Shown here: positions 35,101 through 38,100 of the stretch, in pieces
How the letters are laid out: each line of letters opens with the position of its first letter
Position numbering within the stretch: position 1 is the stretch's first letter
Assembly (NCBI RefSeq): GCF_003334815.1
Contig: NZ_QOWO01000004.1
DNA length: 64,000 nt
Direction: 5' to 3' (one strand)
From: Escherichia coli
GTDB taxonomy: Bacteria; Pseudomonadota; Gammaproteobacteria; Enterobacterales; Enterobacteriaceae
Position numbers: made by a program

Positions 35101-38100
35101 GAAACTGTAATAGCAATTTTTAATCGTGAACTACAGAATATATTCAACCAAGAAATAGAATAATATACTCTAGATAATTAAAGTCGCAGCACATGCAACT
35201 TGAAGTATGACGAGTATAGCTTTCTTAAAGGGGGAAACGGTATTCCCCCTTAGATGCGTTTCAATTTGCCCGTTACTTCAACAAATCAATCAACCGTAAC
35301 AGAGCCACTAATAACTCCAGTACGGCAATGAGCACGGTTAACTTTTGTGTCAGCGTGTCCATCCGCTCTCCTTATTAAGGAGCGCAACACCAGCACCTTA
35401 CCCTTACACTGCCTGTTGATACTGGTTTACGTATGTTGGTACGAAACGTTGCTCTCCGGATCAGGGCACCGCCTGCGGCACCACCCGTCCGGCAGCCAGG
35501 ACTTAAAATTGGTCCGATCCGGCACAACCTCCCAACGGGCAGGATTATAAATCTCACTCACTGAATTGCAATGGAGTGTGGATATGGTTATAATTTATTC
35601 GTTGGTACGAAATGTTGCACAATCAGCAAGTTAGCGTCACTGTAGTAAATAAAAGAACCTGCCTCACCAGCAGGTTTTTTTATTTACTGCGATCTACTTT
35701 CCAGATATTTTTTGCCAATAGCCCAACTTAAATATTCACATCCCGGTCAAATGGTGCGTTGAATATAAAATCGATGAATTTATAAATAAAAATGAGTTAT
35801 ATGATGAATTAATAAAAACAGTAATCATTTTATTAAAGGGGGAAGCGGTTTTCCCCCTTAGATGCGTTTCAATTTGCCCGTTACTTCAACAAATCAATCA
35901 ACCGTAACAGAGCCACTAATAGCTCCAGTACAGCAATGAGCACGGTTAACTTTTGTGTCAGCGAGTCCATCCGCTCTCCTTATTAAGGAGCGCAACACCA
36001 GCACCTTACCCTTACACTGCCTGTCGATACTGGTTTACGTATGTTGGACCACGATGTTGCACTCCGGATCAGGGCACCACCTGCAGCACCCCCCGTCCGG
36101 TAGCCAGGACTTGAAATAGGTTCGATCCGGCGCAACGTCCCAACAGTCAGGATTATAAATCTCATTATCTTAATTGCAACGGGGTCCAGCCGTGGTTATA
36201 ATTCGTTCGTTGGAACACGATGTTGCACAGGCTGTGGTGTTAGGCCTGAAAATAGTAAATAAAAGAACCTGCCTCACCAGCAGGTTTTTTTATTTACTGC
36301 GATCTGCTTTCCAGATATTTTTTGCTCAAACAACTAATGCGCCAAACATTTATTGCGCGTAAAATATCGTTTATTTCATTAATACATTTCAGGGATGAAT
36401 ATATGTCACCGCAGAATAATCATCTGCAGCGTCCGCCTGCTGCTGTGTTATACGCCGATGAACTGGCAAAATTAAAACAAAATGATAACGCTCCTTGCCC
36501 GCCCGGTTGGCAGTTAAGTTTGCCTGCGGCCCGTGCTTTTATCCTTGGCGATAGCGCGCAAAATATTAGCCGTAAAGTGGTGATTAGTCCCTCCGCTGTC
36601 GAACGTATGTTAGTCACTCTTGCCACCGGGCGCGGTTTGATGTTGGTGGGGGAACCTGGCACCGCAAAATCTCTCCTGTCTGAATTACTGGCAACCGCTA
36701 TTAGCGGCGATGCCGGGTTAACCATCCAGGGCGGCGCATCTACTACCGAAGATCAAATCAAGTACGGCTGGAACTACGCCCTGCTTATCAATCATGGTCC
36801 ATCAACGGAAGCGCTGGTCCCTGCCCCGCTTTACCAGGGAATGCGCGACGGCAAAATCGTCCGTTTTGAAGAGATAACGCGTACACCGCTGGAAGTGCAA
36901 GACTGTCTGTTAGGTATGCTTTCTGACAGGGTGATGACGGTGCCGGAACTCACTGGTGAAGCCAGTCAGCTCTATGCGCGAGAAGGCTTTAATATTATTG
37001 CCACTGCCAATACCCGCGATCGCGGCGTCAATGAAATGAGTGCTGCGCTAAAGCGTCGCTTCGATTTTGAAACTGTCTTTCCGATTATGGATTTCGCCCA
37101 GGAGCTGGAGCTTGTCGCCAGTGCTTCGGCGCGTTTGCTGGCCCATAGCGGTATTCCGCATAAAGTGCCTGACGCGGTACTGGAGTTACTGGTCCGCACC
37201 TTCCGCGATCTGCGTGCCAACGGCGAAAAGAAAACGTCAATGGATACACTAACAGCGATTATGTCCACCGCTGAAGCCGTGAACGTGGCCCACGCCGTAG
37301 GCGTCCGCGCCTGGTTTTTAGCGAATCGCGCAGGTGAGCCAGCCGACCTGGTGGACTGCATTGCCGGAACCATCGTCAAAGATAACGAAGAAGATCGCGC
37401 TCGTCTGCGCCGTTACTTCGAACAACGAGTCGCCACACATAAAGAAGCTCACTGGCAGGCTTATTATCAAGCCCGCCACCGCCTGCCGTGAGGAAAGATG
37501 CATGAGCGAGCCGTTAATTGTCGGCATCCGGCATCATAGTCCGGCCTGCGCCCGGCTGGTGAAATCGTTAATCGAAAGCCAGCGGCCACGATACGTATTG
37601 ATTGAAGGCCCGGCTGATTTTAATGACCGGGTAGACGAACTGTTTTTAGCCCACCAGCTTCCGGTAGCTATTTACAGTTATTGCCAGTATCAGGACGGTG
37701 CAGCCCCCGGGCGTGGTGCCTGGACGCCATTTGCTGAATTTTCGCCGGAGTGGCAGGCGCTACAAGCCGCACGTCGTATTCAGGCACAAACTTACTTCAT
37801 CGATTTGCCTTGCTGGGCGCAGAGTGAAGAAGTGGACGATTCGCCTGATACGCAAGAGGAAAGCCAGGCCTTGCTGCTGCGTGCCACCCGCATGGATAAC
37901 AGCGACACCCTGTGGGATCACTTGTTCGAAGATGAAAGCCAGCAAACTGCATTACCCTCTGCACTGGCGCACTATTTTGCCCAACTGCGGGGCGACTCCC
38001 CCGGAGATGCTCTCAATCGTCTGCGCGAAGCCTTTATGGCCCGCTGGATTGGATGGGCGATGCAGCAAAATAATGGCGACGTGTTAGTTGTCTGCGGTGG

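What the first reader, a model, noticed from the sequence alone, without database searches (positions are those of the whole stretch)
35164..36402. Tandem pair of type I toxin/antitoxin modules (29-aa Zor-like toxin plus divergent Orz-like sRNA) inserted between yehK and yehL
The yehK-yehL spacer is 1.24 kb and consists of two near-identical units about 608 bp apart. Each unit has a minus-strand 29-aa hydrophobic ORF with an SD and its own terminator hairpin, a roughly 174-nt 5' UTR, and a divergent plus-strand sRNA of about 81 nt with a consensus sigma70 promoter and a strong intrinsic terminator. The architecture and the peptide sequence match what I recall of the ZorO-OrzO / ZorP-OrzP loci described in E. 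coli O157:H7 and absent from K-12. So the system is probably already described, but it is the main accessory element in the window and it sits inside the uncharacterised yeh cassette.
Basis: partly seen in the sequence, partly recalled or inferred. Interest (0 to 1): 0.6.

Follow-up and report, generated by a model that had tools for sequence, protein, structure and literature searches.

The report
Known zorO-orzO / zorP-orzP toxin-antitoxin pair

Summary
The yehK-yehL spacer (35164-36402) holds two ~491-nt units that are 88% identical and lie 608-610 nt apart.

Each unit has these parts:
- a minus-strand 29-aa ORF;
- a 174-nt 5' UTR;
- a divergent plus-strand sRNA of ~81-83 nt.

The evidence for the identification:
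- The two peptides are letter-for-letter UniProt ZorO and ZorP of E. coli O157:H7.
- Both sRNAs hit Rfam RF02083 (OrzO-P) at 88.8 and 99.9 bits, against a gathering score of 60.
- The spacer differs from an O157:H7 genome at only 9 of 1239 positions. None lies in a promoter hexamer, RBS, pairing site or sRNA.
- The published landmarks map exactly when the TSS is placed at 35536. [quoted passage not shown]

Two details need correction:
- K-12 is not empty. It keeps an intact orphan orzP, published in 2024 as OrzPmg.
- The locus is not an O157-type insertion. At least part of it is in 5425 of 5426 complete E. coli genomes, and it sits at the same site in three other Escherichia species.

The system is already known, so interest is low.

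The parts
35228..35251 (-). zorO 3' hairpin, the likely end of the transcript at about +309
   Evidence: AAGGGGGAA-ACGGTA-TTCCCCCTT palindrome. It folds as a 9-12 bp stem and is followed by only UUU. Its position fits the published ~310-nt zorO mRNA.
35273..35362 (-). zorO CDS, 29 aa, MDTLTQKLTVLIAVLELLVALLRLIDLLK
   Evidence: ORF list. Identical to the synthetic ZorO peptide in PMC6669753. The exact sequence look-up returns 'Small toxic protein ZorO, ZORO_ECO57'.
35368..35373 (-). zorO ribosome binding site AAGGAG, at +164..+169
   Evidence: Read from the sequence. The numbering matches PMC5397157. It is predicted to pair with CUCCUU at +155..+160, with unpaired probability 0.07.
35363..35536 (-). 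zorO 5' UTR, 174 nt (TSS inferred at 35536)
   Evidence: The TSS lies 7 nt past the -10 hexamer. With this TSS the published RBS and pairing coordinates fall exactly into place.
35435..35452 (-). OrzO pairing site in the zorO mRNA (+85..+102), the 3' part of the EAP region (+73..+102, 35435-35464)
   Evidence: Direct repeat D4 on the + strand. RNAduplex gives 18 consecutive pairs, one of them G.U, dG -32.9. In the full-length fold, nt 1-22 of the mRNA pair with +74..+102.
35544..35549 (-). zorO promoter -10 hexamer TATAAT
   Evidence: Promoter scan, 10 of 12 matches, 16-nt spacer.
35566..35571 (.). Palindromic TTGCAA that serves as the -35 hexamer of both the zorO promoter (- strand) and the orzO promoter (+ strand)
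   Evidence: The scan reports the same six bases as the first hexamer on both strands.
35589..35594 (+). orzO promoter -10 hexamer TATAAT
   Evidence: Promoter scan, 10 of 12 matches, 17-nt spacer.
35601..35681 (+). orzO sRNA antitoxin gene, about 81 nt: 5' pairing segment 35601-35618 with V1 = GAA, terminator stem 35649-35676, then the U-run
   Evidence: Rfam RF02083 OrzO-P at 88.8 bits against a gathering score of 60, full model, 35608-35681. Fold with a 14-bp terminator. V1 GAA as published.
35717..35833 (.). AT-rich spacer between the two units
   Evidence: It does not align to the sequence after unit P. It is present in 1802 of 5426 E. coli genomes and is homologous in E. whittamii.
35836..35859 (-). 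zorP 3' hairpin
   Evidence: Palindrome. 9-bp stem.
35881..35970 (-). zorP CDS, 29 aa, MDSLTQKLTVLIAVLELLVALLRLIDLLK
   Evidence: ORF list. T3S relative to ZorO, which is how ZorP is defined in PMC11264685. The exact look-up returns 'Small toxic protein ZorP, ZORP_ECO57'.
35976..35981 (-). zorP ribosome binding site AAGGAG
   Evidence: Read from the sequence. It is sequestered in the same local hairpin in the predicted fold.
35971..36144 (-). zorP 5' UTR, 174 nt (TSS inferred at 36144 by homology with zorO)
   Evidence: 157 of 174 positions identical to the zorO UTR. Same promoter geometry.
36043..36062 (-). OrzP pairing site in the zorP mRNA (+83..+102)
   Evidence: Direct repeat D3. The duplex is 6 pairs, 1 mismatch, 13 pairs, dG -39.0.
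36152..36157 (-). zorP promoter -10 hexamer TATAAT
   Evidence: Promoter scan.
36174..36179 (.). Shared palindromic -35 hexamer TTGCAA of the zorP and orzP promoters
   Evidence: Promoter scan, both strands.
36197..36202 (+). orzP promoter -10 hexamer TATAAT
   Evidence: Promoter scan.
36209..36291 (+). orzP sRNA antitoxin gene, about 83 nt: pairing segment 36209-36228 with V1 = ACG, and an intrinsic terminator
   Evidence: Rfam RF02083 at 99.9 bits, full model, 36216-36291. Fold. V1 ACG as published.

Best explanation
The spacer carries two tandem type I toxin-antitoxin modules, zorO-orzO (35228-35681) and zorP-orzP (35836-36291). These are the same modules described in E. coli O157:H7 EDL933.

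How each module works:
1. The minus-strand gene gives an mRNA of about 310 nt with a 174-nt leader. It encodes a 29-aa alpha-helical inner-membrane peptide. When over-made, the peptide damages the membrane and its potential and stops growth.
2. The full-length mRNA is poorly translated. Its RBS is locked in a local hairpin, and its first ~22 nt pair with +74..+102 (the EAP region).
3. Removal of the first 28 nt frees the EAP region, which then promotes translation, probably as a ribosome standby site.
4. The divergent sRNA of about 80 nt pairs through its 5' end with the 3' part of the EAP region. OrzO makes 18 pairs with zorO. OrzP makes 6+13 pairs with zorP.
5. That pairing blocks translation and triggers RNase III-dependent decay, without Hfq.
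6. The V1 triplet (GAA in OrzO, ACG in OrzP) keeps each sRNA specific to its own toxin mRNA.

Shown here: sequence identity, anatomy, pairing potential and predicted folds.
Taken from the literature for near-identical sequence: toxicity, rescue, RNase III dependence, 5' processing and membrane action.
For: - Peptides: identical to the published ZorO and to the UniProt-named ZorO and ZorP. ZorP is the T3S variant.
- sRNAs: both match Rfam OrzO-P over the full model, well above gathering.
- Similarity to O157:H7: the whole spacer is 99.3% identical to O157:H7 strain Z903 in the same yehK-yehL position. The 9 differences lie outside the promoter hexamers, RBS, pairing sites and sRNAs. The one difference inside zorP leaves the peptide unchanged.
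- Published landmarks: with the TSS at 35536, the RBS falls at +164..+169 and the pairing site at +85..+102, exactly as published.
- Specificity: cognate duplexes are more stable than cross duplexes, -32.9 and -39.0 against -26.4 and -29.5 kcal/mol. The V1 triplets match the publication.
- Folds: in the predicted folds nt 1-22 pair with +74..+102 and the RBS is sequestered, in both zorO and zorP. The EAP region becomes more open in the delta-28 form.
- EAP motif: the conserved GGAG(A/U)G is present in both units.
- Experiments: reported in PMC3919570, PMC5397157, PMC6669753, PMC9860968 and PMC11264685.
Against: - Nothing in the sequence argues against it.
- No transcript, toxicity or rescue data exist for this particular strain.
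- The TSSs are inferred from promoter geometry and from agreement with the published numbering. They were not measured here.
- Most published experiments concern zorO-orzO. The activity of zorP-orzP rests mainly on homology, plus the reported detection of OrzP RNA.
- The physiological role of a single chromosomal copy is still unclear in the literature. Better growth in aminoglycosides needed multiple copies.
- NCBIfam has no Zor model, and RefSeq leaves the spacer unannotated.
Confidence: 0.97

Rival explanations
1. Only unit O is a working toxin-antitoxin pair. Unit P is a decaying duplicate whose sRNA, OrzP, is kept for another job, such as a trans-acting regulator with targets other than zorP.
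For: About 30% of E. coli, including K-12, keep orzP alone, with a fully conserved promoter and detectable RNA. That shows orzP is retained without its toxin. In the papers read here, the toxicity and rescue experiments were done on zorO-orzO.
Against: In this window zorP is intact. It has the same RBS, promoter hexamers and leader fold as zorO. OrzP has 19 nt of pairing to zorP, above the published threshold of 17 discontinuous pairs. ZorP differs from the toxic ZorO by one conservative residue, outside the ALLRL segment required for toxicity.
Confidence: 0.1
2. The spacer is a recently acquired mobile or accessory insertion, which is how the first reader framed it.
For: A 27-nt inverted repeat, 78% complementary, brackets the spacer at 35138-35164 and 36378-36404. 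K-12 has a much shorter spacer.
Against: - The 'arms' are the end of yehK and the start of yehL. Both are also present in K-12, so they are not element ends.
- K-12 retains orzP and the zorP promoter, which looks like a deletion scar and not an empty site.
- 5425 of 5426 E. coli genomes match part of the spacer.
- Three other Escherichia species carry zor-orz at the same site.
- No transposase, integrase or target-site duplication is present.
Confidence: 0.02
3. The small ORFs and hairpins are chance features of a duplicated non-coding spacer.
For: Many 20-60-aa ORFs overlap the region on both strands. The number of promoter-like hits is not above the shuffle expectation.
Against: The sequences are exactly those of experimentally characterised genes. 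The Rfam E-values are 1e-14 to 1e-17. The ORF is the best-conserved part of the repeat, 87/90, with one conservative amino-acid change.
Confidence: 0.01

Closest known systems
zorO-orzO / zorP-orzP of E. coli O157:H7 EDL933 (Fozo 2010; Wen 2014 PMC3919570; Wen 2017 PMC5397157; Shore 2024 PMC11264685)
   Same: Identical ZorO and ZorP peptides. The same OrzO and OrzP V1 triplets and pairing sites. The same promoters, 174-nt leader, RBS position, tandem order and yehK-yehL location. 99.3% nucleotide identity to an O157:H7 genome.
   Different: There are nine differences from O157:H7 strain Z903 (eight single-base changes and one 1-nt indel), none in a promoter hexamer, RBS, pairing site or sRNA. 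One lies in the zorO leader at +120. One lies in zorP and leaves the peptide unchanged. The rest lie in spacers. The host is not O157: the best match is bovine strain 52F4 at 99.9%.
tisB-istR1 (E. coli type I TA)
   Same: Divergently encoded sRNA. Long structured leader with a sequestered RBS. 5' processing exposes an upstream standby region, which is also where the sRNA binds. 29-aa membrane toxin (comparison drawn in PMC5397157).
   Different: No sequence relationship. tisB is LexA/SOS-controlled, and its full-length mRNA is translationally inert. Full-length zorO is still weakly translated.
shoB-ohsC (E. coli type I TA)
   Same: The same divergent gene layout, with limited (about 18-19 nt) trans-type complementarity.
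   Different: Unrelated sequences. It is single copy in nearly all E. coli.
OrzPmg, the orphan orzP of E. coli K-12 MG1655
   Same: The K-12 spacer matches unit P of the window from the first ~30 nt of the zorP leader through the orzP terminator.
   Different: In K-12 the zorP ORF and the pairing site are deleted. In the window both are intact.

Membership tests
Zor-Orz type I toxin-antitoxin family | 29-aa hydrophobic Zor toxin peptide | tested here: met
   Both ORFs equal the database ZorO and ZorP sequences residue for residue.
Zor-Orz type I toxin-antitoxin family | Orz sRNA (Rfam RF02083 OrzO-P) | tested here: met
   88.8 and 99.9 bits against a gathering score of 60, full-length model matches on the + strand.
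Zor-Orz type I toxin-antitoxin family | sRNA encoded divergently from the toxin gene, with its 5' end complementary to the toxin 5' UTR. At least 15 continuous pairs, or at least 17 pairs with one mismatch, are needed for repression. | tested here: met
   OrzO:zorO has 18 continuous pairs (one G.U) at +85..+102. OrzP:zorP has 6(1)13 pairs. Thresholds are from PMC3919570.
Zor-Orz type I toxin-antitoxin family | 174-nt leader with a sequestered RBS at +164..+169 and an EAP region at +73..+102 that is closed by the mRNA's own 5' end | tested here: met
   The coordinates fit with the TSS at 35536. Predicted folds pair nt 1-22 with +74..+102, and the RBS with +155..+160. This is prediction only; no structure probing was done here.
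Zor-Orz type I toxin-antitoxin family | Promoters TTGCAA / TATAAT for both genes | tested here: met
   Four sites with exactly these hexamers. The same hexamers are reported as 99% or more conserved in PMC11264685.
Zor-Orz type I toxin-antitoxin family | Chromosomal position as in O157:H7 | tested here: met
   Between yehK and yehL in O157:H7 Z903, and in every other genome inspected.
Type I toxin-antitoxin system (general) | Toxin over-expression arrests growth, and the cognate sRNA rescues it | not testable with these tools
   Published for the identical ZorO with OrzO (PMC3919570). Not measured for this strain.
Type I toxin-antitoxin system (general) | Transcripts are actually made from both genes | not testable with these tools
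   Northern data exist for EDL933, and for OrzP in MG1655. None exist for this strain.

The most novel reading that the evidence does not exclude
The fixed position of zor-orz is not accidental. It sits between yehK and yehL in E. coli and in three other Escherichia species, and only its copy number varies. On this reading the module is functionally tied to the uncharacterised yehH/I/K and yehLMPQ cassette (DUF4132, MoxR-type ATPase, DUF5682, vWA and SWIM proteins). It could act as an insulator or bidirectional terminator between the two gene blocks, as a stabilising addiction element for the cassette, or as its effector arm.

A smaller, related novelty concerns the palindromic TTGCAA that both divergent promoters use as their -35 hexamer. 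If toxin and antitoxin transcription were mutually exclusive at each initiation event, this would be a promoter-level toggle.
Probability: 0.07. Interest if true: 0.45.

Novelty: already known. Interest (0 to 1): 0.1.

Why it matters
It matters little as a discovery. The system has been named and dissected since 2010-2014, and its population genetics across more than 2,000 E. coli genomes was published in 2024.

The practical value is for annotation. RefSeq/PGAP leaves this 1.24-kb spacer blank in every genome inspected, and NCBIfam has no Zor model. A scan will therefore keep flagging it as 'unannotated'. This window can now be labelled with exact coordinates for two toxin genes, two sRNA genes, their promoters, pairing sites and terminators.

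Tried and rejected
1. Mobile-element insertion. The 27-nt inverted repeat that brackets the spacer is just the yehK end and the yehL start. Both are also present in K-12. Rejected.

2. Protein-family models. NCBIfam returned nothing for either peptide even at E <= 1. This shows a gap in the library and is not evidence against membership. The exact-sequence look-up gave the names instead.

3. Terminator scan. It listed the orz terminators only on the minus strand and did not call the zor hairpins. The orz hairpin is symmetric, A-rich before and T-rich after, so it can act in both directions. The plus-strand reading is supported by Rfam and the fold.

4. Inter-unit spacer as a decayed yehK 3' end. 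There is weak, collinear similarity: nucleotide local score 30, reached by 2 of 500 shuffles, and protein score 36, reached by 5 of 1000 shuffles. The E. whittamii spacer is homologous but frame-broken. The divergent yehK allele of strain 8178 is no closer. Left as a hint.

5. Counting copy number. Coverage of 80% or more mixes one-copy and two-copy genomes, because pieces of a single unit map to both halves of the query. I used the inter-unit spacer as a tandem-specific probe instead.

6. Genome-wide species scan. The degenerate 38-nt pattern had to match exactly, so absence from other Escherichia species or other genera is not proof of absence.

7. Literature on yehLMPQ function. One unrelated genome announcement was found.

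Full report
**1. The observation**

YehK (105 aa) ends at 35163 and yehL starts at 36403, so the spacer is 35164-36402, 1239 bp.

It contains two direct-repeat families. One is 300 nt at 93% identity with spacing 608. The other is 73 nt at 99% with spacing 610.

In a global alignment the repeated cores, 35226-35716 and 35834-36326, are 88% identical. Identity by part:

| Part | Identical positions |
|---|---|
| Small ORF | 87/90 |
| Leader | 157/174 |
| sRNA body | 68/85 |
| Promoter block | 48/64 |

A 117-nt AT-rich stretch (35717-35833) separates the units. It does not align with the sequence that follows unit 2.

Each unit has these features:
- a minus-strand 29-aa ORF (35273-35362 and 35881-35970) with AAGGAG 5 nt before the ATG;
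- a G5/C5 hairpin after the ORF;
- two back-to-back promoters, TTGCAA-16/17-TATAAT;
- a plus-strand RNA that ends in a 14-bp stem followed by U7.

**2. What it is**

*The peptides.* The first ORF, MDTLTQKLTVLIAVLELLVALLRLIDLLK, is identical to the ZorO peptide synthesised in PMC6669753. An exact look-up in the protein collection returns 'Small toxic protein ZorO, ZORO_ECO57'. The second ORF has S at residue 3 and returns 'Small toxic protein ZorP, ZORP_ECO57'. This matches the definition of ZorP as the T3S variant (PMC11264685).

*The sRNAs.* Both plus-strand RNAs match Rfam RF02083 (OrzO-P antitoxin) over the whole model, at 88.8 and 99.9 bits against a gathering score of 60.

*Comparison with O157:H7.* The spacer is 99.3% identical to the yehK-yehL spacer of O157:H7 strain Z903. 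The nine differences are:
- one in the zorO leader, at +120;
- one in zorP, which leaves the peptide unchanged;
- seven in spacers.

None touches a promoter hexamer, RBS, pairing site or sRNA.

RefSeq annotates nothing in this spacer in any genome inspected, and NCBIfam has no model for the peptides. That explains why the region looks empty.

**3. Anatomy against the published map**

Placing the zorO TSS at 35536, 7 nt past the -10 hexamer, gives a 174-nt leader. It also puts the RBS AAGGAG at +164..+169 and the OrzO pairing site at +85..+102. These are the published coordinates: RBS +164 to +169, and the EAP region +73 to +102 with OrzO pairing at its 3' end (PMC5397157).

The hairpin after the ORF ends at about +309. 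This fits the published transcripts of ~310 and ~280 nt, the full-length and delta-28 forms.

*Pairing.* OrzO (from 35601) pairs with zorO through 18 consecutive base pairs, one of them G.U. OrzP (from 36209) pairs with zorP through 6 pairs, one mismatch, then 13 pairs. Duplex energies:

| sRNA | Target mRNA | dG (kcal/mol) |
|---|---|---|
| OrzO | zorO (cognate) | -32.9 |
| OrzP | zorP (cognate) | -39.0 |
| OrzO | zorP (cross) | -26.4 |
| OrzP | zorO (cross) | -29.5 |

The V1 triplets that set specificity, GAA in OrzO and ACG in OrzP, are as published. The conserved EAP motif GGAG(A/U)G is present in both leaders.

*Predicted folds.* The folds of both full-length mRNAs reproduce the published model:
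- nucleotides 1-22 pair with +74..+102;
- the RBS pairs with CUCCUU at +155..+160, with unpaired probability 0.07 in both forms;
- removing the first 28 nt raises the unpaired probability of the pairing site from 0.35 to 0.47 in zorO, and from 0.29 to 0.49 in zorP.

**4. Mechanism**

*Shown here:* sequence identity, layout, pairing potential and predicted structure.

*Taken from experiments on near-identical sequence:*
- ZorO over-production arrests growth.
- OrzO rescues. The rescue needs RNase III but not Hfq, and OrzP does not cross-rescue (PMC3919570).
- The full-length leader hinders translation and the delta-28 form promotes it through the EAP region. OrzO can also block translation there (PMC5397157).
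- ZorO sits in the inner membrane, disturbs membrane integrity and potential, and provokes hydroxyl radicals. The ALLRL segment is required (PMC6669753).
- Extra copies improve growth in aminoglycosides (PMC9860968).

*Inferred:* zorP-orzP works in the same way.

**5.

*K-12 is not empty.* Its 306-bp spacer keeps the zorP promoter, about 30 nt of the zorP leader and a complete orzP. This is the orphan antitoxin OrzPmg, shown to be expressed (PMC11264685).

*The locus is not an O157-type insertion.*
- 5425 of 5426 complete E. coli genomes match at least part of the spacer.
- The tandem-specific inter-unit spacer is in 1802 of 5426 genomes, or 33%.
- In the evenly spaced sample, about 36% of rows are two-unit, 24% one-unit and 36% orz-only. 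This is close to the published 42%, 25% and 30%.
- A degenerate-pattern scan of one genome per species found zor in three non-coli Escherichia species.
- In all three species zor lies between yehK and yehL.
- E. whittamii has the tandem pair and a homologous inter-unit spacer.

So the tandem arrangement predates the divergence of these species. The shorter forms are best read as deletions.

**6. Verdict**

The system is already known, so interest is low. The residual novelty is limited to three small points:
- the shared palindromic -35 hexamer;
- a possible yehK-derived origin of the inter-unit spacer;
- the unexplained fixed position inside the yeh cassette.

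Noticed in passing
window 35183-35220: A short ERIC/IRU-type repeat remnant, AGTCGCAG|CACATGCAACTTGAAGTATGACGAGTATAG, lies between the yehK stop codon and the zorO hairpin. Strain 8178 (L003 1430-1530) has a full-length ERIC at the same spot, including GTGAATCCCCAGGAGCTTAC...AAGTAAGTGACAGGGGTGAACG, which corresponds to the ERIC PCR primer sites (recalled from memory). 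The extra segment of ~77 bp is bounded by the 8-bp direct repeat AGTCGCAG. The 34-nt piece also matches elsewhere in E. coli genomes (median 5 places per genome). It probably also explains the weak Rfam isrH hit at 35164-35218. It occurs only once in this window.
   Followed up: partly
window 35748-35830: The inter-unit spacer shows weak, collinear, in-frame similarity to the 3' end of yehK (YehK residues 68-95). The nucleotide local score was reached by 2 of 500 shuffles and the protein score by 5 of 1000 shuffles. This suggests the ancestral duplicated segment was yehK'-zor-orz. The E. whittamii spacer is homologous but frame-shifted. Not conclusive.
   Followed up: partly
window 35566-35571 and 36174-36179: In each unit the palindromic hexamer TTGCAA is the -35 element of both divergent promoters. 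The toxin and antitoxin promoters therefore share a -35 site, and RNA polymerase probably cannot occupy both at once.
   Followed up: no
L002 1500-1540 (K-12 yehK-yehL spacer): The K-12 remnant is mosaic. The first ~18 nt (AAATTGGTCCGATCCGGC) match the unit-O leader of the window, and the rest matches unit P. The deletion leaves about the first 30 nt of the zor leader, nearly the same segment that 5' processing removes (delta-28). The retained zorP promoter now points into yehK in antisense.
   Followed up: no
window 35643-35688 and 36253-36298: The orz terminators are symmetric, with an A-rich run before the stem and a T-rich run after it. The consensus scan called them on the minus strand. 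They could also stop minus-strand read-through. For example, transcription that runs past the weak zorP hairpin would meet the orzO terminator.
   Followed up: no
window 16210-16306 (-) and 56721-56801 (-): Two other Rfam matches lie above gathering score in the window. One is a TPP riboswitch (71.2 bits) upstream of thiM. The other is the Peptidase-S11 RNA motif (72.8 bits), near pbpG to judge from the neighbouring genome's annotation. Both are expected E. coli features.
   Followed up: no
L006 11553-11867 (E. whittamii yehK): E. whittamii YehK is only 78% identical to the window's YehK. The flanking YehI C-terminus and YehL are 95-96% identical. E. coli strain 8178 has a yehK allele with a 5-residue deletion. 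So yehK evolves much faster than its neighbours.
   Followed up: no
window 27350-34785 and 36403 onward: The cassette around the locus comprises two large DUF4132 paralogues (the first annotated only as a DUF4132 protein, then YehI), YehK, a MoxR-type ATPase (YehL), DUF5682 (YehM), vWA (YehP) and SWIM (YehQ). A literature search found no functional study. yehM is a pseudogene in two of the genomes inspected.
   Followed up: partly
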